The notes under the pieces are model-generated. The model made no database searches, had not been told where the DNA came from, and worked only from the letters and a program-made list of their open reading frames with translations. The translations under genes were made by a program, and so were the position numbers. Below, piece by piece: positions 2,924-45,694 of a stretch of 64,000 bases of DNA. This DNA is from Massalongia carnosa (Eukaryota). Position 1 is the first letter of the stretch, and each line of letters begins with the position of its first letter. Location: NCBI GenBank assembly GCA_965645245.1, contig OZ287075.1, forward strand, positions 1,178,001 through 1,242,000. The letters run 5' to 3'.

Positions 2924-4421
2924 TTAATCCTTCCTCACTGGCGACAGGTTTGGCCACTCTTCTTTTGTGAACATAGCCTTTTGGGCCTTTTCCGTCATCC
3001 AGGCAAACCAAGGCTCAACTTTGATGGCCCAGAAATGTGTGGCCGCGAAAAAAATCCCAAGGAAGATGGGCATGACGATGATGAACCTCGGGATGCCTGG
3101 TAGAGGGTATCGTAACACAGCCACCCTATCTTCCTCTACAATCATGAGATGTTGCCCGTAAAATAGCATCCAAGCGAGGATGCTGCGCATAAAGGATCCA
3201 TGCAGGAGATACAACGGGAAACTAATCTTTCCCAACCAAAGTAGCCATCTATGGCTCAAGCCACGCCGGAGATGTGGAGAAAGCACGATTGCGAGAGTAA
3301 GCAACTGGGCGCCGATGGTGGGCCAGAAGCGAGCGACCTCGATGTTGTCGGGAGCGATTTTGTAACACGCTTGAAGAAGAAAATTGGACCAATAGGTCCA
3401 GGGTTGAAACTGAGAGGGAAATGACATTAAGAATAGGCCTGTAAGAACGAGAGGCGGAGCAAATAGGTGAGAGTAGGATGATAAAAGGAGAGGAAATCGT
3501 GAATGGTGGAGCTCGACGAGTAGGATTCCGGCAAAGACGTTGACCCCAACCATTGCTGCAGAGTAGTTTAAGTTAGTAAACTATCTCGAAGCTCGTGTTC
3601 AAATTGCTTACGATCTCCAAGCTTGATGCCCCAGTTGAAGGACCAGAAGTAGCAGAACACCAGAGCGGTTACACGAAAACTTGACTTGAGGTTTATCGTC
3701 ACGAGCAAGGCGGTGAAGACGAACATTGAACCTTGAAGAAGGTATAGCAAGGCCCATTGAGGTTGATCGTAGGGGTTGTCGGGGTTATACGTCCATGTCG
3801 TCCGAACAGCATGTAGCAGGTCCTTGACTGCATCTGTCCAGCAGAGGCTCGGTCTCGGGCTTGTCACGTACAGCCAGTATGCATTCGAATTCCTTGCTAT
3901 TTCGTAGGCACCGAGCTGGCAGATGAACCAGCTAAGGGCAGTGGCCGCTGTAGCAGGAAGGAACAATCGAAATGACCGCTTGAAGGAGCTGATTGCAAGA
4001 TTCGATAGAGCAGTCTCGATATTCCCCCCCTTTGCGAGTTTGATCGGTTTCAATGCATTCACGAAGCCGGAGAGAATGAAGAACAACGCCACCCAAGCTG
4101 GCCCTTGCCCCACGAGACGGAAGAAGGGCTTTTGCAGCAGGGAGGAGTGTGCATGTAATCCATCCGAGGGCCTGACAATGTATCGAGCAAAGGCAAGTAC
4201 CATATGGCTGCTCATCACAAACACGGCCGCAATGCCTCGAAGGCCCTTGCACAGGGTGAGCTTGGGGAATCTTATATGGGCAAGTGCACAAATCAACTCA
4301 TAGCACATACATCTGCCCAAGAACTATCTTCCAGTGCTGTTTTAGCAGCATTTTTGTCGATAGCTGGTTTTTGAAACCCCTTTATGGCGTAGATATTAAG
4401 AATGGCTTTTGATAACGACAT
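2924..4421 (-). CDS. Acyltransferase-3 family multi-pass membrane protein (3 exons)
   Basis: Motifs WAD/GLRGIAA, FFILSGFV, RSFRLFLP and LGKISFPLYLLH. GT-AG introns at 4310-4246 and 3611-3556 join the ORFs in frame. Confidence 0.85.
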
Positions 4422-14296: not shown

Positions 14297-15074
14297 TAGG
14301 TGGTAGGCTGTAAACTCCTACAGAGACTCCGGATTGGCTTACTCAGCATGTTTACCAAGAAATTTGCTGGCTTCATGTTAGTCATCCCCCTCGGCATCCC
14401 CTTTCCGCTGCCCCCTGAAAGGAATGATTACTCCGTACCATGCAAATCTCCTAAGAAATGAACGCTCGAAAATCTTCTTCGCGGAAGACTTCAACCTACG
14501 AGTACAAATCGAGTACAAATCAAGTACAAATCATCTCGGTCGGGTTCGACTGTCATCCCCATACACTAACTTAACCCAGCACTAACCTGATGGCATCCGT
14601 TTCCGCCTGTGCAATTCAGAGTGGGATCGCATCCTTGTACCAATGACGCATTTCCCCTTCCGCTCTTTGGGGCACTAATCTCCGAATCAATCTTCCAATT
14701 CAAACCTTCGAAAATGAGAAAGAATCGAACGTTTAACGCGGACCGCGCCGTTGACATTTGGGTACTGTTGCTGGCGTGGGAAACAAATCACTAACAAAAA
14801 GTTTTCCTCTATCTGTACTTGGTATGCTCTGGCCTCTCTGGCCTACCACCCCCTGAAGCATCATGAGTGTGTCGCTGACAAAGGACGCAATGACAAGCAT
14901 CTTGACTTTAGGCTAAACGATTCCACAAACGTCAGCCCACATTGGATGCAGGATGCGTGAAGAGGGGGGAAATAACTTCAAGAGCGTGTGTGACTGTCAT
15001 TGTTTGCTTGGAGTCTGCCCCTTGGCCCTAGACTCCCCCATCAGAGGAGCCGGACAATTGGTGGACCGGCCTCG

Positions 15075-17501
15075 ATGATGAGGATTATCAACGTTGAAGA
15101 TCAAGAGCGAACCGCCAATCAATTTATCAGCGTAAGAATTGCAGGAAAGCCCTTGAAGAAGCAGAAGAGCATCACAAGGCTATTCTCCTCGTCATCCAAG
15201 GCGTTGAGAGTCCCACCCCACCCCAATCTCGTACATCAACCAACGACACCTCCTAAGACTTTCACGCCCTTAACAACCCCATCACAATCCCCAGAAACCT
15301 TTCCTACAAGAACGCAATCTAAACCTGCTATTCAAGCGTTAGATAAAGCCGATCAATCGTCGAGCGGTAGGGGGAAAGGGGGCTTGCCTGTTGTGCAGGA
15401 AATACAGAACCAAAATGTGAATGTAACCACGAACGGGGAAGATTCTCCCCCCCCTACCGATATACGCCCTAGCGAGGAGAGCGATTCCGAGATGCCAGAA
15501 GATGCCAGCACAAATCGCGTCGCAAAAGCTGGAGAACCGGCGCTACATGGGTCCTCCGTCTTGCCACCGCTGCCGGAACGGTCTTCCTCATTGGCCGCCC
15601 CAACCCCATTGACCGGCCGAATGCGTGGAGCACCGGCATCGTCACACATACTCCAACCTACGCCTTTAAGAATCGCGACGCCATTTCGACCGTCCACCGC
15701 TGCCGGTATGTACCGTTTCAATCAGCACTACCCGAAAGGACCGTTACAAGTCGGTGCCCCTATCGTTGAAGGCCAACTCACTCCAATTTCAGCCGAGGAG
15801 AGGTTTCCGTCAGGCGCTTATAGCCCCTGGGAACTCACAAATGACAGCGCAGAAGTTCGGACGAGTCTTCGGTCTGCGTTGACCAGCAACTCGAGCTTCT
15901 ACGATGCAACGAGTACGGAACGGAGCAGTGTTGCCACCAAAAACACCTCGATTGGAGGACTTATCTATGAGTCCCAATCGTCGATGTCTAAGCATGCTTC
16001 AATGACTGTTGATGATGCTATAGATATGTATGCTGCGGGATTTTCGGATGATATCGATAGCCCGAAGAACGCACCGGTCCCGTGGCCGTTGGGCGAAGTA
16101 GAAAGTAGGCAGTCGCTGAAAGTAGCCGAAGCTATATACGAGAATATCGAGGCTGATACAACCCTGCATGCACGTCCATTATCAGCCAAGTCTACTAGCT
16201 CGGCGGCAATCATGTCTGGTAATGCCCCCCGGACCGACTCGCCGGCGCCGGCGCCAGCGCCATCTCTGGTACAAGTACCTACGGCCATGCGTGATCAGTA
16301 TGGTTTTCTCAAAGCCAATCATCAAACCACGAACGAACAGTATGATGCCTGGAATGCTACATACCGCTCGAGTCAAAAAATACGAACTCAGAAGTGGCTG
16401 TTGTACATGAGAGAAAATAGTCTACCGACCCATGCACCATTTCAATTCCCATCACGATCAGCAAAGACGCAACGTTTCATCCGCAAGGGAATTCCTCCCG
16501 ACTGGCGGGGAAACGCTTGGTTTTTCTATGCTGGGGGTGACCGGTTCCTCCAGAAACATCCCGGCCTCTTTTCTACCTTGGTATCTCGCTCCCACTCAGA
16601 ATTAAGTAACAACGACAAAGACATGATCGAGCGCGACTTACATCGTACATTCCCCGACAACATCCATTTCAAACCCGAACCAACCGTTTGCTCATTCGCG
16701 AAATACCCATCCATTGAGACTCCGCTCCTTTCGTCCCTACGCCGCGTCCTCCAAGCATTCGCGCTCTACTGCCCACGAATCGGCTACTGCCAATCCCTTA
16801 ACTTCATCGCCGGCCTTCTCCTCGTTTTTCTGCCCGAAGAAAAAGCATTTTGGATGCTCCACATCATCACGACGGACCACCTACCTGGAACTCATGACGT
16901 TAGTCTCGAAGGCGCCAACGTCGACCTCTGGGTTCTCATGCTAGCCTTTAAGCAAAGCCTTCCAGCCCTCTGGCCGAAAATCGGCAACGTCGACGGCCTC
17001 TCCCAGTCCCACCCATCCCGCAGCGAACCCGCCCGCCTGCCGACGATCAGTCTCTGCACCACAAGCTGGTTCATGTCTCTCTTCATCGGCACGCTACCCA
17101 TCGAGTCCGTGCTACGCGTGTGGGATGTGCTCTTTTACGAGGGTAGCCGTACGCTATTTCGCGTCGCATTGGCAGTTTTCAAGCTTGGCGAGGCGCGCAT
17201 CAAGGCCATCAGCGACCCCATGGAGATCTTTCAGCTCGTGCAGGCGCTGCCGCGCGGGATGCTGGATGTAGGTGTGTTGATGGAGACGGCGTTTCGGCGT
17301 GGTGGGGGTGTCAGCCAGGAGTGGGTCGAGAAGCGAAGGAGGCAGCGCAAGAAATGGTACGCGAGCGCCAGGGCTCAAGCTGCTGCTTCTGCTGCTCTAG
17401 GGCCGGACTGTGGGGCTTCTTCAGCGGCCTCATCGCCAATGTTGAGCAAGGCCAACTCGGTCTGGAGACGGCGAGTTGGGCAGCAACGGCTCGGGGATTG
17501 A
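15075..17501 (+). CDS. GYP3: TBC-domain Rab GTPase-activating protein, Msb3/Gyp3-like
   Basis: Long low-complexity N-terminus, then RDQYGF, IRKGIPPDWRGNAW, IERDLHRTFP, IGYCQSLNFIAG and SVLRVWD. Start codon uncertain. Confidence 0.85.
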   Translation: MMRIINVEDQERTANQFISVRIAGKPLKKQKSITRLFSSSSKALRVPPHPNLVHQPTTPPKTFTPLTTPSQSPETFPTRTQSKPAIQALDKADQSSSGRGKGGLPVVQEIQNQNVNVTTNGEDSPPPTDIRPSEESDSEMPEDASTNRVAKAGEPALHGSSVLPPLPERSSSLAAPTPLTGRMRGAPASSHILQPTPLRIATPFRPSTAAGMYRFNQHYPKGPLQVGAPIVEGQLTPISAEERFPSGAYSPWELTNDSAEVRTSLRSALTSNSSFYDATSTERSSVATKNTSIGGLIYESQSSMSKHASMTVDDAIDMYAAGFSDDIDSPKNAPVPWPLGEVESRQSLKVAEAIYENIEADTTLHARPLSAKSTSSAAIMSGNAPRTDSPAPAPAPSLVQVPTAMRDQYGFLKANHQTTNEQYDAWNATYRSSQKIRTQKWLLYMRENSLPTHAPFQFPSRSAKTQRFIRKGIPPDWRGNAWFFYAGGDRFLQKHPGLFSTLVSRSHSELSNNDKDMIERDLHRTFPDNIHFKPEPTVCSFAKYPSIETPLLSSLRRVLQAFALYCPRIGYCQSLNFIAGLLLVFLPEEKAFWMLHIITTDHLPGTHDVSLEGANVDLWVLMLAFKQSLPALWPKIGNVDGLSQSHPSRSEPARLPTISLCTTSWFMSLFIGTLPIESVLRVWDVLFYEGSRTLFRVALAVFKLGEARIKAISDPMEIFQLVQALPRGMLDVGVLMETAFRRGGGVSQEWVEKRRRQRKKWYASARAQAAASAALGPDCGASSAASSPMLSKANSVWRRRVGQQRLGD

Positions 17502-38587: not shown

Positions 38588-39799
38588 TAATAGATGAAGA
38601 CGAGGACGGGGCACTGATGAGGTTGACACTTGATCAAAAAGAGCTCGCACTCTGGGACTCCAGTCTCCGACATCTGTAGTAGCGGAAATTTAGGTTCAGA
38701 AGGCTTTCAAATGCAGGGCGTTGGTTTCGGTTTCAATCCGTTGAGTCTTTTAGTTTTTTGAAGCCCGGTAAATTCGACCCTCTTCCTCCGTACAGAAAAT
38801 GAAGAAATATCAGTTTGCTTACAGCAACGTTCCGCCAAGCGAGTTCACCGATAATGGTAGATCAAAAACGGCTATGTGTATTTCGTGTTCGAGTGCTCCC
38901 TTTACAACTCACTCTCTTGGGTATCTTGTTTAGTGTAATTCGCACTAGATCATATAGGGCCGTTCTGGCTGATTTCAATAAAGTGGTCTCACCGATTATT
39001 GTGTATAAGCCGCTAACGGCCCGCTGTCATCAGCTAGCGGAGCATTATTTCAACCCGCCATAGCGTCCGCTAAGTTTGATCGATTTCTCATTGAGGGCAA
39101 GTCAGAGGCCAACTGGATGTAGGCTTCCTCACCTCAGCTAGCAACGGACTGCCGCTGGTTAGCTTTCGTTATCATGACTTTAACCTCCTTCATGCCATGC
39201 ATCTTTATTCATTTCTGTCTCCAGTTCTTTTCCACTTTTCTGCCTGACCCTACTCAGTCACACTGCATATATTTTACTTCTCATGCAGCTGCAACAACTG
39301 ACAAGCTCGGAACTCCCAAATCTGCTCCATTCTTTGGTTGTTTCTGCTCGGCTAGGAAGGCAACGTGTGGATCCTTGATACGATCATCTTGCTCAAGAGC
39401 GATCGACCAATCATGGGATTTGACTAGAACAGCCTTCCAGCTGAGCCACCGCCAGTCAATGTCCATATTGTTCTCCATCACATCATGAACATGTCAAACC
39501 ATTCGCTGCTGTCTAAGAGAACCCTGGCAACAGAAGCATGGGACTTCTAGTGGATGAGTTGGCAGGTTTGAAGGGAAAAGATGTTGCTAGCTAAATGGTT
39601 GATTCGATAATTTTAACATCGGATTAAGATATGTCCACTGTCCAGCGTATCTATAAATTCATGCTACAACGTCCGTTCGTTCTCTTTTATTCCTCTATAT
39701 CAGCACCTTATCATTGTATAAAGCCATACAGAGAAACTCAAAACCACTTTTCCAAATCAAACAGAAATATATCAACTCTTGATCAACCGGACATTCAAA

Positions 39800-40237
39800 A
39801 TGTCTACCATTGTCACCGCAAGTTCGTTCCAGTTTCTGTCTCAATGGATTAAGCTCTTTACTGACAACTGGCAAGCTACCCGGGTGTCATACAAACCCAA
39901 TGAGCTCAACATCCACGCCAACCCTGGAAGTTTCATCAGATTTGAGAATGGCGCCAATTTTGTATTTCAAGAGGACGGCAATTTGGTAGTCTACAACAAC
40001 GGGAAGCCTCTCTGGGCTGCTGGATCTAATGTCCATGGAGGCAATAAGGACAATCTAATCCTTCGATTCCAAGATGATGGAAACTTGGTGCAGTACCTAA
40101 ATAACTCGGCCAAATGGTCTACGAAGACCGCTGGGAAGGGAGTTAAGCTTGTGATCTCGGATAGTACACCCTTTCTGATAATCTTGGACAAGAATGGAAA
40201 CATCGCTTGGCATTCCACACAAGATGTCAAGCCATAA
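39800..40237 (+). CDS. Bulb-type (GNA-like) mannose-binding lectin, no signal peptide
   Basis: Two QxDxNxVxY sites (QEDGNLVVY, QDDGNLVQY), each followed by a Trp. Possible short in-frame intron ~39822-39875. Confidence 0.85.
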   Translation: MSTIVTASSFQFLSQWIKLFTDNWQATRVSYKPNELNIHANPGSFIRFENGANFVFQEDGNLVVYNNGKPLWAAGSNVHGGNKDNLILRFQDDGNLVQYLNNSAKWSTKTAGKGVKLVISDSTPFLIILDKNGNIAWHSTQDVKP

Positions 40238-40798
40238 TGGCTGAAAGAGGCCATTCAAGAAAAGTTCACTCTAAAGGTGATGAGAGAGGACATGCAAAGG
40301 ACAGTGATGGATGGATGGTACACATTTGATGAGTTAACTTGAGTCGTTCCCTTTTGAAAAGCATTGAGTAAGATTGCTTGGTATGCATCTAAAGTAGGAA
40401 AGCAAGTAGTTGAATGAAATAGAGTTCTTTATTTCACCAATAATGAACCAGACGATGCGCAGGTGATTTGTTCATGGGTGAGCGACCGAGACTATAAAAT
40501 TAGAGCTCACATGACGGCACTAGAAACGATCTGTAGAAGAAGAACGAAAATATAATTCTATGACCCTTATCGGTGCCGTTACCTTCGCTTGCGCTGGGGG
40601 GGCTTTTAATTGGATGAATTGATTTGAATGCTTGAATTTGATTGGGCATGGGAACGACACAGGTCAGCCCGGGCAGGCCTAGGCACGTGACTCGGGGTCG
40701 GTGCTGAGGTGAGAACCTCATCTTCTAGGCCCGAGGCGTCTGCTGACGCTCAACGATCCGATAGATGATGCCCGACGGCAGTGCCCGACGGCGATGAT

Positions 40799-42256
40799 CT
40801 AGATGGAGGTGCCCGGCGGCGCTCCGGATCGATGCCCTGGTTGACCTGTACGCCCAATGGAATGCCCAATTGAGTAGGGGTAGGAGTTTGTAGGATTCGT
40901 CTCGGCGACGACAGCACGTGGGACTGCTAGAGGGATGCCTTTTTGAAAACTGAGGTTCAAATTGAATAGTGAGGCCTGGGACGTCTGAAAGTATAGCTGA
41001 AACGCGTTTGATGACCATCTTCCGAGTCTCTGAATACTCTCATCCAGCATCCCGTGGTCGGCGGCGTGTTGTGCTGCTCCTTTTCTGAAGCTGTGTCCCG
41101 AGTATGCCGAGTCGTTGATGCCGACGGCTATCAGTCTCTTTTTCAGGGATGCTATGACGGAGGCTCTGGTGAATGCGGTGCCGAGACGAAAAAGCGGGGA
41201 TGTAGATGGCTGAGGATCATTTCTGAAAAGACGCCGTAGTGCTGTCACGGGGCAAGTGCTCTCATTGGTCGCTGCCAGCACTATCTGAACTCCTGAGTGA
41301 TTTGTGTCTGTTTTGCTTCTTTTGAGACGTAATGTCGCGTATTGATCGTTCTCGGCGAATGAGATGTCACCTCGTGTAGGTTTCAATCTCTGAAAAGATG
41401 TCTTCTTACGATCAGCGACAGTGTAGGTGATTTCCCCGAGTCTGAGGAACCCTGCCCATGCAACTTTGAATGTCGCGTCGATGTTGAGGTCTTCGGCCGA
41501 ATGAGCGGGAATACTGGTGATTTTTGTCAGTAATTCTTTTGAAATGGGTAGGCGTCTTCTTTTTGTCTGAGAAAAGATCCTTTTTCCCCCTTTCAGCATC
41601 AATTGAAGTCTCGGCCCCTCGAATGGGGTGAGGCCGTATCCTCGGTCTACATGGTATGATCTGAGGCCGGCGAGGTAGCTCGCTGCCGTCTCTGGTTTTA
41701 TCTTTCCCTGCTTGGGTGTGCCGCCCCCGTATAGTCGACCGGCTAGCCATTCCTCGAGGGACTCGGTTGTTGCAGGCCACGACGTGCGTCCCGTCGTCGC
41801 GCAGAATGCCTCGTATGAGTCGATCGCCGTCCCGTACCCTTTTCTCGTGTCCGCCGAGTGTCCGTGCCAGACGAGACGTTTTACCAGGGCTGACCCTGGT
41901 GTGGAGGATAGGTAGGTGGAGGGAGGTTCATCGAATTGTATGGGTTCTAGGTCCTCGTCGTCATCGCCGACGACACGACTCGGCTTGCCAGCAGGAATGA
42001 CGGCCGCTATTCGGGCGTCAGATTCTCGGCGCATGCAGTCGATTTCTAGCTGCATTTTTTCCACCTCCTTCTCGGCGACCAATGCCTTGGACTCGGCAAT
42101 TCTGGCCTCAGCCTCGGCCGCCTTCGCTTCTGCCTCGGCTTTCTTCTTTTGTAGGGCGAAGATTTGATTGGACTGGGCCTGCGTCAATCCGACAATCTCC
42201 TGGGAGTCGGGGACTATGTCGTCCATCGGGGTGCTTTGGGAACGGGTGTTCGTCAT
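40799..42256 (-). CDS. 485-aa fusion: coiled-coil Gag-like N-terminus + tyrosine recombinase
   Basis: Catalytic set visible: AGFLRLGE (R), RSKTD (K), GHSFRKGAA (HxxR), LGRW, FQLY (Y). N-terminal helical domain TRKGY...YLAGLRSYH. The ORF is uninterrupted. Confidence 0.9.
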   Translation of the reverse strand: MTNTRSQSTPMDDIVPDSQEIVGLTQAQSNQIFALQKKKAEAEAKAAEAEARIAESKALVAEKEVEKMQLEIDCMRRESDARIAAVIPAGKPSRVVGDDDEDLEPIQFDEPPSTYLSSTPGSALVKRLVWHGHSADTRKGYGTAIDSYEAFCATTGRTSWPATTESLEEWLAGRLYGGGTPKQGKIKPETAASYLAGLRSYHVDRGYGLTPFEGPRLQLMLKGGKRIFSQTKRRRLPISKELLTKITSIPAHSAEDLNIDATFKVAWAGFLRLGEITYTVADRKKTSFQRLKPTRGDISFAENDQYATLRLKRSKTDTNHSGVQIVLAATNESTCPVTALRRLFRNDPQPSTSPLFRLGTAFTRASVIASLKKRLIAVGINDSAYSGHSFRKGAAQHAADHGMLDESIQRLGRWSSNAFQLYFQTSQASLFNLNLSFQKGIPLAVPRAVVAETNPTNSYPYSIGHSIGRTGQPGHRSGAPPGTSI

Positions 42257-42270
42257 TGGGAAAAAGCACC

Positions 42271-42402
42271 GACAGCGAGGTAGGGGCACCGAGGACAACG
42301 TGAGGTCGACGACGAGTCAGTGAGATGGGAAAAGCAGCAAGCACTGACAGCGAGGTAGGGGCACCGAGACAACGTGGGGTCGACGACGAGTCAGTGAGAT
42401 GG
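42271..42402. repeat. ~58-bp direct repeat pair (42271-42328, 42346-42402) in the 5' leader of the YR ORF
   Basis: GACAGCGAGGTAGGGGCACCGAG(G)ACAACGTGRGGTCGACGACGAGTCAGTGAGATGG occurs twice. Confidence 0.92.
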
Positions 42403-43059
42403 ATGAGGCCGAGTGAGAAGAAGTGGATGAGGAAAGAATTTTCAGAGGGTGATTCTTAATTTACTTTGACTCAGGGGCCTCACGTGACATAGAACCATCT
42501 CATAAATGTCACGAAACAAAGTGTCACAATTCCTAAGTGGGAATTAAACCAAATTGGGTTAAAACCGTAAACGATGTCACGGTCGTGATCCTGCTTAAAA
42601 CGAGTCACGAGATAACGGCGGAAATCTCTTGCGCGATCTTACCGCAAGGGATTAGAAAGTGCACTGTTATATTAATAAATGTAGAGTTTTAATCGTAATT
42701 ATCATTAATCTTTTTAAGTAGATTCTAAATTTAAAAAAAAAGTAACGAAAAAAACGCAATAATTAATGTCACGATTCGACTATACATAATGCGGGCGGCA
42801 GGGCCTACAGCGCGATTCCCATTTATAAGCTTAGTCTACGGACTAAGTATTGTGCCTTTTGCCCGATAGGGATAAACTGAATGATGTGCATAGATGAATC
42901 TATGGCGCATCACTGGGCCATTATGTGGAAAGGGGTAAACGATCAGATCAGCGTCGTCATCAAGATAAAGAGATGAAAAGATGAAAAGCAAAAGAGATAG
43001 GCAGGCGGAAACTATCCCTCTCGCTGGCAACCCTCACAGTGAGAGCGATAACTGCTTGC

Positions 43060-43132
43060 TCAGGGGATGGTCATGTGACCGTACGCAAACACTGACTAGT
43101 TAACTATCGGTAGTCACATGACCATCCCCTGA
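43060..43132. repeat. 73-bp hairpin with perfect 20-bp inverted arms (possible mini-MITE)
   Basis: TCAGGGGATGGTCATGTGAC (43060-43079) and GTCACATGACCATCCCCTGA (43113-43132). Confidence 0.9.
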
Positions 43133-43527
43133 TCATCTGATGGAGGTCCACTCCACCCCTTATCTACGGAAATCGCCAATATTGTTATTCAGGATTTTCA
43201 CGTGTCTTGTTCAGTGTTTACATTATAATTTCAATCGTACGAACTCTTATTGCTGAATTATACTAATTCCATATAACAAAGAAATAAGAAGAAAAGAAAA
43301 CGTGGAATTGTAAATGTCCCGCTTTGAGTTTCAAATTATCGTTATGACGAATTGATATTTATCGTTCTTCGTAAGACATATGTGCTTGTCAACTAGCTAA
43401 CCTTGACGCATTTAAGTATCAGTTTTTACAAGGTAATATACTCGTATTCATCTGTACTCGAACAAAGTCCCTAAAATCAGCTCATAGGCATGGCAGACAA
43501 GAATATAGTATATAAGAAAGCTTGGTA

Positions 43528-45694
43528 ATGTCCTCATCACAGCCTTTTCAGGCTTCATCTCCATTCTCATCGATTTCTGGATGTTGCCATAAATCTCGAT
43601 TTACTTTCAAACATCTCGCTCAGCTAGGGGTCTCATCTACATCTTGCCCACTTCGTGTCATAGCCCACATAGATCTAGATGCCTTCTATGCCCAATGCGA
43701 AGGGGTGCGACTTAACATACCGGAAGATCAGCCACTTGCTGTGCAGGTAAGCAGGCTTTTTCAATTCATGGCTCGGGCTCTAATCTCGACTCTAGCAATG
43801 GCAAGGGCTGATCGCTATCAATTATCCTGCAAGAGAGTATGGCCTAAATAGGCATGTCACAATTACGGAAGCGAAGAAGAAATGTCCAGATCTAATCATG
43901 CAACACGTTGCTACATGGAAAGAGGGGGATGAAAAATGGGCCTATCATGAGGATGCTTTTGCTCAAATAGCTTCCCATAAGGTGTCATTGGATCCTTATC
44001 GTCTAGAGTCCAGAAAAATCCTTGACTGTATCAAAGACGTGCTTCCGCCATCCCCATTTCAAAGGGTGGAAAAGGCTAGCGTTGATGAGGTCTTCCTGGA
44101 TTTGTCGTCACAAGTGCATTCAATTCTCATAGAAAGATACCCCGAGATTAGCGGTCCTGCGCCATACGATGACCCTACTGAACTGCTACCACGGCCGCCC
44201 ACAAGCGCTTTGGACTGGAACTCCGATGCACTAGTGGATCTTGATATTACAGAAACAGAGGATGATGACCCTGACTGGGATGATATTGCTATACTAGTTG
44301 GATCTGAGATTGTGCGAACTGTACGTGCGGCTATCCGGGAGCGTCTGAAATACACTTGCTCTGCCGGCATTGCCCGTAACAAAATGATTGCTAAGTTAGG
44401 CTCTGCCCACAAGAAGCCAAACCAGCAAACTATTGTGCGCAATCGAGCCGTGCAGAATTTTCTTGGAGGGTTCAAGTTTACGAAAATCCGAAACCTGGGA
44501 GGTAAGCTGGGAGAGGACGTTGCGGCCAAGTTCGGCACAGATGAGGTGAAAGACCTACTAGTGGTGGGGCTGGAGAAGATGAAATGCAAAATTGGAGATG
44601 ACACAGGATCATGGGTCTACGAAGTAATACGGGGAAATGATTTGAGCGAAGTCAATTCCCGAACGCAGATCAAGTCAATGCTCTCAGCTAAATCCTTTCG
44701 CCCGAGTATTAATACATTTGAACAAGCAACTCGATGGCTTCGAATCTTTGCGGCAGACATATTCTCAAGACTTGTCGAAGAAGGTGTGCTGGAGAATAAA
44801 CGAAGACCCAAAACCATGAATCTTCATCATAGACAAGGGGCTCAAATGCGATCTCGGCAGGGCCCTATTCATATGGGGAGACTCATTGACGAGACACTTA
44901 TTTTCGATATTGCCAAGAATTTGCTCGGACAGATTGTAGCAGATGGACGCGTGTGGCCTTGTAGCAACCTCCAGCTGAGTGTTGGCGGATTTGAAGATGG
45001 GCCCACAGGAAATCGAGGCATTGATGGGTTTTTAGTGAGAGGATATGAGGCTAAGGCAATGAGGGCAACAATCGGGGAGCTCAATATAGATCAAACGTAT
45101 CGGGAGAATAACCAGCCAGAAAAGCGACGCAAATCCGAAAATGGCGTTATCGAGAGATTCTTAGTAAAGAAAGACTCCTCTGACGGAGGCGACAATCTAG
45201 AAGAGCGAGTTATTGGAAACCGATTTGCTGTTGACGACAATTTGTCAGCGCAAACCGTGATCCAAAGGATGTTTCAAGAGACTGCCAAGAACCCTCAGCA
45301 AAACGGGATAGAGAAGATCGATGGCCTTGGGAACGGTACGACCTTGACAATATGCAATACTCAGAATGACAGTTCATCCGCATTCACCAATAAGAATAAC
45401 CCCGCGCTACAAGCAACCAGCTTATATCTTTGTGATCAATGCAACATACCCATATTAGAAGGAGACAAGGAAGAGCATAGAGATTGGCATTTCGCAAAAG
45501 CTTTGCAGTCTCAAGAACGTAGTCATGCTCCACCTGGTAGCCCTCAATCAGCATTGTCACACGAGTCAAAAGCAAAGGGCGGTAAAAATCGTCCTTCTAG
45601 TCTCCCAATAGCGGTTGGTAAGAAACGAACTCATCTAGACCGGGTGCAGGAAAAGCCAGAAAAGGGCCAAAGAAAGTTGAAATTCGAGACTTGA
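43528..45694 (+). CDS. RAD30: Y-family DNA polymerase eta
   Basis: Motifs HIDLDAFYAQCE, AVQQW across intron ~43747-43795, ASVDE, KPNQQT and IRNLGGKLG; C-terminal UBZ CDQC...EHRDWHFA and PIP-like QRKLKF. Confidence 0.92.

What the first reader, a model, noticed from the sequence alone, without database searches (positions are those of the whole stretch)
40556..42494. RT-less tyrosine-recombinase element with an intact Gag-N/YR fusion whose junction looks like a splice junction
Seen: a single 485-aa ORF joins a coiled-coil, acidic-ended N-terminus (...GDDDEDL) to a complete YR with all catalytic residues, and no RT or RNase H is nearby. Just after the join, another frame reads PYNSMNLPPPTYPPHQGQPW*, like the tail of an overlapping upstream ORF. 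Known: DIRS/Ngaro elements carry gag, RT/RNase H and an overlapping YR ORF. Inference: the join GACCTAG|AACCCATAC (minus strand, between 41947 and 41946) fits an exon ending in AG spliced to an exon starting after CAG. This copy could therefore be a reintegrated spliced subgenomic RNA, which would show how the YR is expressed and define a non-autonomous 'recombinase-only' retroelement.
Basis: partly seen in the sequence, partly recalled or inferred. Interest (0 to 1): 0.78.

Follow-up and report, generated by a model that had tools for sequence, protein, structure and literature searches.

The report
Spliced retro-copy of a fungal Ngaro retrotransposon
This 1.9-kb insert is a DNA copy of the spliced messenger RNA of a tyrosine-recombinase (Ngaro-type) retrotransposon, and it indicates that these elements probably make their recombinase by splicing the start of gag onto the recombinase reading frame.

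Summary
Window 40799-42256(-) is one 485-aa ORF. Residues 1-103 are the start of a Gag protein, and residues 104-485 are a complete Cre-like tyrosine recombinase (YR). The window holds no RT or RNase H.

Contigs of other copies in four public runs leave the window copy exactly at 41947/41948. On the gag side they continue with GTGAGA. On the YR side they arrive through CTAAC, then 19 nt, then CAG. The missing segment is therefore a canonical GT...AG intron.

Protein clusters from a public genome confirm both sides. The Gag ORF (327 aa) reads through the donor. The YR ORF opens only 5 codons before the acceptor and has no ATG.

In relatives from metagenomes the same phase-1 donor and the same branch/acceptor are kept in 9 and 23 lineages respectively. 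Synonymous sites within these signals are frozen. The 2.3-2.6 kb between them encodes RT. The family has split direct repeats, so it is Ngaro-type, not Crypton.

I found only this one spliced copy, so a proliferating "recombinase-only" family is not shown. No RNA data could be obtained.

The parts
40556..42503 (-). Whole insert: an intron-less copy of a Ngaro-type YR retrotransposon (5' repeat A, Gag-N/YR fusion ORF, 3' repeat B). The ends are uncertain by 1 nt on each side.
   Evidence: summed depth is 2-4e5 inside against about 470-890 in the flanks in X2. Loose ends with diverse flanks lie at 40556 (X2, X5, X6) and 42502/42503. Contigs of X2 and X5 cross from unique flank into the element.
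42257..42503 (-). 5' non-coding region (repeat 'A' of the family). It contains a tandem duplication of about 75 nt at 42264-42402.
   Evidence: D1, D2. In one search, an X6 contig joins 40557 directly to 42502 and runs on to 42327. Some X2 contigs skip 90-92 nt here.
41947..42256 (-). Exon 1: Gag codons 1-103 plus the first base (G) of codon 104. It gives a long helix at 26-86 and an acidic disordered end.
   Evidence: the P0136 match stops here; structure.
41946..41947 (-). Exon-exon junction. The parental intron (GTGAGA ... CTAAC, 19 nt, CAG) has been removed between these two bases. The join is ambiguous over 41947-41948 (AG).
   Evidence: table 7: loose ends at 41947 'before' (X1, X2, X5) and at 41948 'behind' (X1, X5, X6).
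40799..41946 (-). Exon 2: the tyrosine recombinase ORF (residues 104-485, Cre-like, catalytic residues intact) with its stop at 40799-40801.
41881..41946 (-). Last 21 codons and stop of the parental pol (RT/RNase H) ORF, in another frame. This is what remains of the pol/YR overlap downstream of the acceptor.
   Evidence: Searches show that relatives' RT-bearing ORFs end with ..CPHWQ plus 10-60 residues across the same site.
40556..40856 (-). 3' region (repeat 'B' of the family): the last 19 codons of the YR plus the 3' non-coding end. It occurs only once here; no A2-B2 follows.
   Evidence: X6 contig 23 reads B-end | A | 54 nt | 40856->40827; no second copy in the window.

Best explanation
The insert is a retrotransposed copy of the spliced subgenomic mRNA of a multi-copy Ngaro-type tyrosine-recombinase retrotransposon of this fungus (probably an ascomycete).

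The full-length element reads: repeat A, gag (327 aa), pol (RT/RNase H), YR, repeat B, and in at least some copies a second A and B.

Splicing runs from a phase-1 donor inside gag (codon Gly-104, G|GTGAGA) to an acceptor in the pol/YR overlap (CTAAC, 19 nt, CAG|). It removes the rest of gag and all of pol. It puts the YR frame, which has no ATG of its own, behind the gag start codon. The product is a Gag(1-103)-YR fusion protein.

Shown here:
- the structure of the locus;
- the unspliced sequence on both sides of the join;
- conservation of both splice sites across distant relatives, beyond what the coding frames require;
- RT inside the relatives' intron.

Inferred:
- this splice is the normal way the family makes its recombinase (my odds about 0.7);
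- the spliced RNA kept the terminal sequences needed for reverse transcription, was copied by RT supplied in trans, and was inserted by the YR at the B|A junction;
- the shared Gag helix may tether the YR to Gag assemblies (speculative).
For: 1. Exact intron boundaries.
- YR-side contigs match up to 41948 and then run on with GCCAATGAGGGCAAAAGTTAGCCAATCTTT on the + strand. X1, X5 and X6 each have one such contig, with identical letters. On the element strand this reads ..CTAAC, 19 nt, CAG, followed by the exon.
- Gag-side contigs match 41947-42503 and are preceded by ..GAGAGGGATCTCAC on the + strand (X1 and X5 one contig each, X2 four). On the element strand this is GTGAGA right after the exon.
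- One X6 contig carries 2186 nt beyond the acceptor. One X1 contig carries 1064 nt beyond the donor.

2. Independent protein evidence.
- P0136 (Gag, 39 members) reads ..DDDEDL-GEIPLEVRSI.., which is the translation of the loose-end DNA through the donor.
- P0002 (54 members) starts MPSLA-EPIQ. This corresponds to TTG CCC TCA TTG GCA directly after an in-frame TAA, so the unspliced YR frame has no ATG before residue 220.

3. Donor conserved. All 15 loci (9 lineages) with a gag homologue have G|GT at the homologous Gly codon in phase 1: GTGAG in 6 lineages, and GTACG, GTAGG and GTACT in one each. The Gly codon is always GGT, although GGT is only 0.21 of 453 Gly codons in these elements. Gag identity to the window family is only 21-32%.

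4. Acceptor conserved.
- 23 of 25 lineages (41 loci) have CTRAY 8-35 nt before an AG in the YR-compatible phase. The other two phases give 4 and 8 of 25.
- In the 11 lineages with the pol motif (A/T)N-x-CPHWQ, the base that makes CTAAY is T in 11 of 11 (background GCT 0.24). Gln is CAG in 11 of 11 (background 0.49). Neighbouring synonymous sites vary.
- In the L003 lineage the pol ORF stops 15 nt before the acceptor (L003).

5. Reading frames.
- The YR frame opens at most 9 codons before the site in 37 of 41 loci.
- 33 of 41 loci have no ATG before the site.
- The predicted spliced ORF stays open through the YR (333-369 codons) in 9 of 13 loci. The other 4 are decayed copies.

6. Content of the intron. 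It is 2321-2563 nt in relatives. Its ORF hits RVT_1 above the Pfam cut-off in 4 of 4 tested (33.8-58.1 bits against 29.6). All 10 database proteins that match a relative's pol tail carry PF00078 and end ..CPHWQ...

7. Host splice signals. A host intron 1.2 kb away uses the same kind of signals: GTAAGC...CTAAT...TAG.
Against: - No RNA evidence: no listed run that holds the sequence is on record as RNA.
- No listed contig bridges 41947/41948 in the four runs laid (2357 rows were not shown). The joined form therefore rests on the window's assembly alone.
- Only one spliced copy was found. The exact 485-aa protein is not in the 15-billion-protein collection.
- The parent's RT was not read directly.
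- The copy has A and B once each. An X6 contig and relatives L004 and L026 show the A1...B1-A2-B2 layout, so a further step must be assumed. That step could be B1xB2 recombination, or resolution of the circle at its B|A junctions.
- Donor and acceptor lie in coding sequence in most lineages and the lineages are related, so the probabilities from synonymous sites are overstated.
- 8 of 41 loci have an ATG 5 codons before the acceptor that could start a stand-alone YR.
Confidence: 0.85

Rival explanations
1. Splicing happened, but as an accident. The gag GT and the pol/YR AG are cryptic sites kept only because they encode Gly-Glu and Trp-Gln. The copy is then a dead by-product, like the spliced L1 copies (SpIREs) of human DNA. 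The YR would normally be made another way, such as a -1 frameshift from pol or internal initiation.
For: - Only one spliced copy was seen.
- In most lineages both sites lie in coding sequence.
- The YR frame is -1 relative to pol and overlaps it. I read this from the sequence.
- 8 of 41 loci have an ATG 5 codons upstream.
- SpIREs show that spliced retroelement RNAs can be copied without the splice being useful (PMC5860796, abstract seen).
Against: - Synonymous positions that make up the signals are fixed: GGT in 9 of 9 relatives' lineages against 0.21 background; T of CTAAY and G of CAG in 11 of 11. Adjacent synonymous sites vary.
- The signal sits in the YR-compatible phase in 23 of 25 lineages, against 4 and 8 in the other phases.
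- In the L003 lineage the pol ORF stops 15 nt before the acceptor (L003).
- 33 of 41 loci have no ATG for the YR.
- I saw no classical slippery heptamer in the overlap. This was by eye only, not by a scan.
Confidence: 0.15
2. A plain genomic deletion inside an integrated full-length copy (end joining at the 2-nt AG microhomology) that happens to begin with GT and end with AG.
For: The two breakpoints share AG. Internal deletions are common in retroelements.
Against: The breakpoints coincide to the base with a GTGAG-type donor and a CTAAC-19 nt-CAG acceptor, and both are conserved at homologous places in distant relatives. The deletion also keeps the frame and joins two ORFs that lie in different frames in the parent.
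Confidence: 0.04
3. An assembly artefact: cDNA or RNA-derived reads, or a collapse among the roughly 50 copies, produced a junction that is not in the chromosome.
For: No listed contig of X1, X2, X5 or X6 bridges 41947/41948. The family is highly repeated.
Against: Both element ends are joined to unique flanks in contigs of X2 and X5. A repeat collapse would not produce a precise GT...AG removal. The copy has its own differences from the family majority at 10 sites on both sides of the join (table 3).
Confidence: 0.03
4. A Crypton-type DNA transposon (YR only, never had an RT).
For: The window has a YR ORF and no RT.
Against: - The N-terminus is the first 103 residues of a zinc-knuckle Gag.
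- The tail of a pol ORF lies in a second frame.
- Unspliced copies exist.
- Relatives have the order gag, RT, YR with split direct repeats.
Confidence: 0.01

Closest known systems
Ngaro retrotransposons (order DIRS; fungal Ngaro groups of Muszewska et al. 2013, PMC3783388)
   Same: Relatives have the order gag, pol (RT/RNase H, no methyltransferase hit), YR, with split direct repeats A1-[ORFs]-B1A2B2. The YR ORF is frameshifted against pol and overlaps it, as that paper states for all Ngaro groups (passage seen).
   Different: This copy has no pol and no second A-B. Its gag start is fused in frame to the YR at an intron-shaped deletion. The passages I saw in that paper contain neither 'intron' nor 'splic' (0 occurrences). 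The paper's abstract reports only a single remnant Ngaro in Ascomycota, whereas this host looks ascomycete (leads only).
DIRS-1 of Dictyostelium (PMC7192593)
   Same: It is a YR retrotransposon with overlapping ORFs. Its RT can act in trans on an RNA lacking RT, and intron loss marks passage through RNA (passages seen).
   Different: DIRS-1 has inverted terminal repeats, an internal complementary region and a methyltransferase. The intron in that work is an artificial reporter, not a natural splice used for expression.
Spliced subgenomic mRNAs of Ty1/Copia elements (Arabidopsis, PMC5580714; BARE, PMC3735527) and, from recall, retroviral env mRNAs
   Same: One transcript is alternatively spliced to set the ratio of products of a compact retroelement genome. 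For both papers I saw only the title and the start of the abstract.
   Different: There, splicing favours Gag (or Env in retroviruses). Here it would remove most of gag and all of pol to express the integration enzyme as a Gag-N fusion.
SpIREs, spliced integrated retrotransposed L1 elements (PMC5860796)
   Same: They are genomic copies of spliced retroelement RNA that document splice sites inside the element (abstract seen).
   Different: From recall, SpIREs come from splicing that harms L1. Here the sites are conserved across distant lineages and give an intact, in-frame enzyme ORF.
Crypton DNA transposons (PMC3212892; only the search listing was seen)
   Same: A YR is the only complete enzyme encoded at the locus.
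   Different: See the membership test. Gag and pol remnants and RT-bearing relatives exclude it.

Membership tests
Ngaro (YR retrotransposon, order DIRS) | Encodes a tyrosine recombinase with the R..K..HxxR..(H/W)..Y set | tested here: met
   (R272, K312/315, H388, R391, W414, Y422, all conserved). (Cre-like fold, E about 5e-9). Pfam Phage_integrase is only below its cut-off (16.6 bits against 27.1).
Ngaro (YR retrotransposon, order DIRS) | Encodes RT/RNase H (pol) between gag and the YR | tested here: not met
   In this copy, 0 pol hits in the window at E <= 1 and only the last 21 pol codons remain. In relatives the feature is met: RVT_1 above cut-off in 4 of 4 pol ORFs, and 10 of 10 pol-tail homologues carry PF00078. 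The locus is therefore a derivative of a Ngaro element, not an autonomous member.
Ngaro (YR retrotransposon, order DIRS) | Split direct repeats A1-[ORFs]-B1-A2-B2 | tested here: not met
   The window copy has A and B once each. The family does show the layout: an X6 contig reads B-end|A|B, and relatives L004 and L026 have A1..B1A2B2.
Ngaro (YR retrotransposon, order DIRS) | No methyltransferase domain (this separates Ngaro from DIRS1-like) | tested here: met
   There is no methyltransferase family among the Pfam hits of 4 relatives' pol ORFs at E <= 0.01. The parent's own pol was not seen.
DIRS1-like | Inverted terminal repeats plus an internal complementary region | tested here: not met
   between the two end regions there is only a 15-nt, 87% inverted match (40691-40705 / 42265-42279). 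Relatives have direct split repeats.
Crypton | DNA transposon whose only element-derived coding sequence is the YR (sometimes with host-type domains); no gag or pol ancestry | tested here: not met
   Gag N-terminus; pol tail; unspliced RT-type relatives.
Processed (spliced-RNA-derived) retro-copy | The missing segment is bounded by canonical splice signals in the unspliced parent | tested here: met
   GTGAGA after the exon-1 end; CTAAC, 19 nt, CAG before the exon-2 start.
Processed (spliced-RNA-derived) retro-copy | The spliced RNA is observed | not testable with these tools
   No RNA run holds the sequence.

The most novel reading that the evidence does not exclude
Fungal Ngaro-type retrotransposons carry a conserved intron of about 2.4 kb that spans most of gag and all of pol. 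They express their recombinase only from the spliced RNA, as a fusion to the N-terminal helix of Gag. This would be a subgenomic-mRNA strategy not described for any YR retroelement in the papers I could search. Such spliced RNAs remain competent for reverse transcription and YR integration. They can therefore seed RT-less, recombinase-only derivatives that make the fusion without needing to splice.
Probability: 0.6. Interest if true: 0.78.

Novelty: new variant of a known kind. Interest (0 to 1): 0.68.

Why it matters
How DIRS and Ngaro elements translate a recombinase ORF that overlaps pol in another frame and usually lacks a start codon has been left as 'frameshifted/overlapping' in the papers I could read.

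This locus is a natural record of the answer for one family. Comparison with relatives turns it into a testable rule: a phase-1 G|GTGAG donor in gag, and a CTAAY...CAG acceptor at the pol/YR overlap.

If the rule holds, it affects three things:
- how these elements should be annotated, since the YR protein would start with Gag residues;
- how the Gag/Pol to YR ratio is thought to be set;
- what short YR-only copies in genomes are, since some may be processed Ngaro copies rather than Cryptons.

Tried and rejected
- Own genome: none is held.
- RNA evidence: no RNA holder is listed.
- Bridging contigs: the four runs laid are all contigs, and no listed contig bridges 41947/41948.
I used a relative's pol tail instead. 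That found 10 RT-bearing ORFs with similar tails but not the parent's own pol.
- N-terminal 103 aa against 1.84 billion representatives: only 3 hits, all gag fragments or relatives, and no other fusion.
- Self-association of the Gag N-terminal 103 residues: complex prediction gave no verdict (score 0.02).
- Pfam on Gag P0136: no family.
- tRNA scan around the insert: none found.
- Earlier findings of this scan: nothing.
- Literature: searches, and passages from PMC7192593, PMC3783388, PMC8547959, PMC13465315, PMC4157794 and PMC6681497, gave no report of a natural splice that expresses the YR of a DIRS or Ngaro element. Goodwin & Poulter 2004 and Poulter & Butler 2015, the papers most likely to mention it, are not held. 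So 'not in print' is not established.
- Crypton, DIRS1-like and plain-deletion readings: considered and rejected for the reasons given under the rivals and the membership tests.
Full report
**What is in the window**

On the minus strand, 40799-42256 is one 485-aa ORF. It has two parts of different origin.

- Residues 11-103 match the first 93 residues of a 327-aa protein, P0136, with a single difference. P0136 represents a cluster of 39 sequences from a public genome. It ends in a CX2CX4HX4C zinc knuckle, so it is a Gag.
- Residues 104-485 match P0002, a 387-aa ORF representing 54 sequences, with 3 differences in 382.

This second part is a complete tyrosine recombinase.
- The residues R272, K312/K315, H388, R391, W414 and Y422 are all conserved among 32 homologues.
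- A profile of the family aligns weakly to Cre at the catalytic motifs.
- An AlphaFold model (mean pLDDT 83.9) matches Cre over both domains, with Foldseek E about 5e-9 and target TM 0.62-0.67.
- In the model the Gag part is one long helix (26-86). A disordered acidic linker (89-100) follows and ends just before the join at residues 103/104.

Just after the join, a second frame reads NPYNSMNLPPPTYPPHQGQPW and then a stop. Three pol proteins of relatives find nothing in the 64-kb window at E <= 1.

**Limits of the insert**

I laid the contigs of four public runs on 39600-43400.
- In X2 the flanks have depth of about 470-890, while 40556-42503 has a summed depth of 2-4e5.
- Other copies leave the window sequence at 40556 and at 42502/42503, with diverse flanks.
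- Contigs of X2 and X5 run from unique flank into the element on both sides.

The insert is thus about 1,947 bp. It lies in intergenic DNA next to a DNA polymerase eta-like gene.

**The decisive test**

The same call shows what unspliced copies look like at the join.
- Contigs that match the YR side stop matching after 41948. On the + strand they continue with GCCAATGAGGGCAAAAGTTAGCCAATCTTT. X1, X5 and X6 each have one such contig, with identical letters.
- Read on the element's strand, this places CTAAC, then 19 nt, then CAG directly before the YR exon.
- Contigs that match the gag side (41947-42503) are preceded on the + strand by ...GAGAGGGATCTCAC (X1, X5, and four contigs of X2).
- On the element's strand, the exon ...GACCTAG is therefore followed by GTGAGA.

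The missing segment is a GT...AG intron with a good fungal donor, branch site and acceptor. Its only ambiguity is the 2-nt AG expected for AG|GT...AG|.

One X6 contig carries 2186 nt beyond the acceptor, and one X1 contig carries 1064 nt beyond the donor. The segment is therefore longer than 2.1 kb.

A host intron 1.2 kb away uses GTAAGC...CTAAT...TAG.

**Independent confirmation from proteins**

- P0136 reads ...DDDEDL-GEIPLEVRSI.... The residues after L are the translation of the loose-end DNA through the donor. The donor therefore lies inside gag, after the first base of Gly-104 in the numbering of the fusion, which is phase 1.
- P0002 begins MPSLA-EPIQ. In the loose-end DNA these codons are TTG CCC TCA TTG GCA, directly after an in-frame TAA. 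The 'M' is a TTG start called by an ORF finder.
- The next ATG in the YR frame is at residue 220. That explains the 266-aa members of the cluster (of the 15 members listed, five are 387 aa, three 384, six 266 and one 322).

The unspliced YR frame thus has no usable start codon of its own.

**Relatives**

A scan of metagenome contigs gave 68 loci with YRs 25-50% identical.

Gag and donor.
- Fifteen loci have a gag homologue that could be mapped at the donor position (21-32% identity).
- All 15, in 9 lineages that do not align to each other at the DNA level, have G|GT in phase 1 at the homologous Gly codon. GTGAG occurs in 6 lineages, and GTACG, GTAGG and GTACT in one each.
- That Gly codon is always GGT, although GGT is only 0.21 of 453 Gly codons in these elements.

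Acceptor.
- In the 41 loci where it can be read, the YR frame opens at most 9 codons upstream in 37.
- 33 have no ATG before the conserved N-terminus, and 8 have an ATG 5 codons upstream.
- In 23 of 25 lineages a CTRAY motif lies 8-35 nt before an AG in the phase that continues the YR frame. The other two phases give 4 and 8 of 25.
- In 11 lineages the site lies in the pol motif (A/T)N-x-C-P-H-W-Q. There the third base of the first codon (the T of CTAAY) is T in 11 of 11, and Gln is CAG in 11 of 11. The Asn, Cys, Pro and His codons vary at their third base.
- In the L003 lineage the pol ORF stops 15 nt before the acceptor (L003).

The lineages are related, so exact probabilities cannot be given. 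The pattern is still what selection on splice signals would produce, and not what the coding frames alone require.

The intron and the spliced product.
- Donor and acceptor are 2321-2563 nt apart.
- The ORF between them hits RVT_1 above the Pfam cut-off in 4 of 4 cases. It hits RNase H just below the cut-off in 3 of 4, with no methyltransferase.
- The predicted spliced frame stays open through the YR in 9 of 13 loci. The other four are decayed.
- Ten of ten database proteins that match a relative's pol tail carry PF00078 and end ...CPHWQ plus a short tail. Some tails (QNPWNSM) are close to the window's QNPYNSM.

Terminal repeats.
- L004 and L026 have split direct repeats A1...B1-A2-B2.
- An X6 contig of the window's own family reads B-end|A|B.

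The family is Ngaro-type. It is neither DIRS1-like nor Crypton.

**How it most likely works**

The full-length RNA is alternatively spliced. The spliced RNA keeps the 5' region, the gag start and 103 codons, and then the YR and the 3' region. It encodes a Gag(1-103)-YR fusion.

The window copy shows that such an RNA existed, that it was reverse-transcribed (necessarily by RT supplied in trans), and that it was inserted with the family's normal ends. It has no poly(A) tail. Both ends coincide with those of other copies.

It is young. It has 3 amino-acid differences from the cluster representative, and it differs from the majority of copies at 10 sites.

That the splice is the family's regular route to the recombinase is an inference from conservation. 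I put it at about 0.7. That the shared Gag helix brings the YR into Gag assemblies is a guess, and the one modelling attempt gave no verdict.

**What does not fit, or is missing**

- The copy has A and B once each, whereas relatives and at least one family copy have a second A-B. Recombination between B1 and B2, or resolution of a circle at its two B|A junctions before integration, would explain this. Neither was tested.
- No listed contig bridges the join in independent data.
- No RNA run holds the sequence.
- No second spliced copy or other Gag-N/YR fusion turned up. A self-propagating 'recombinase-only' family is therefore not shown.

**Comparison and novelty**

Alternative splicing to balance products is known for Ty1/Copia elements (PMC5580714 and PMC3735527; titles and abstract starts seen). 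Genomic copies of spliced L1 RNA are known as SpIREs (PMC5860796; abstract seen).

For YR retroelements, six full-text searches and passages of six papers gave no natural splice that expresses the recombinase. The fungal survey (PMC3783388) only says that the YR ORF may be frameshifted and overlapping. Two key papers are not held, so priority is uncertain.

I rate this a new variant of a known kind, of good interest to people who work on retroelements.

Noticed in passing
window 42828-42861: A 34-nt stretch containing a small palindrome (CTTAGTCTACGGACTAAG). In X2, X5 and X1 its depth is as high as that of the retrotransposon. In other copies it is flanked by conserved foreign sequence on both sides (tables 2 and 7). 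It looks like a fragment of another repeat family, or of the parent's internal part.
   Followed up: no
window 42484-42772: The motif TGTCAC/GTGACA occurs five times: once just inside the element's 5' end and four times in the roughly 270 nt of AT-rich unique flank beyond it. It could be a host promoter element or a target preference of the recombinase.
   Followed up: no
window 43057-43135: A 23-nt inverted repeat, 96% complementary with a 33-nt spacer, upstream of the polymerase eta-like gene (I1).
   Followed up: no
window 42264-42402: A tandem duplication of about 75 nt in the element's 5' non-coding region. Some other copies in X2 and X5 skip 90-92 nt or 17 nt here, so the repeat number varies within the family.
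   Followed up: partly
P0101 (named Penicillium roqueforti protein) and locus L021:380-470: The annotated 648-aa protein joins the RNase H end (..ADALSR) directly to the YR start (PLGVEPP..). In the near-identical locus L021 this corresponds to removing a short GTAACA...CTAAC...CAG segment that uses the same acceptor. This hints at a second, short splice that would give a pol-YR fusion. I read it by eye only.
   Followed up: partly
L009:1-5750: The YR (1738-2757) is followed after about 700 nt by a gag (3707-4381). A 300-nt repeat recurs at a spacing of 4515 nt. This is either two elements head to tail or a permuted assembly of a circle.
   Followed up: no
whole window (host): The nearest Atlas clusters of two host proteins (polymerase eta-like, 43898-45691; RabGAP-TBC, 14994-17498) are mostly Ascomycota (leads only). 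The 2013 fungal survey found only one remnant Ngaro in Ascomycota (abstract). A young family of about 50 copies in an ascomycete would extend that picture.
   Followed up: partly
runs X1-X16: Near-identical element sequence is held by runs filed under at least eight different organism labels and in lichen and air metagenomes. In X1 and X6 the flanks are absent and the element depth is only 3-5. That fits this fungus being a minor passenger in those samples rather than transfer between species.
   Followed up: partly
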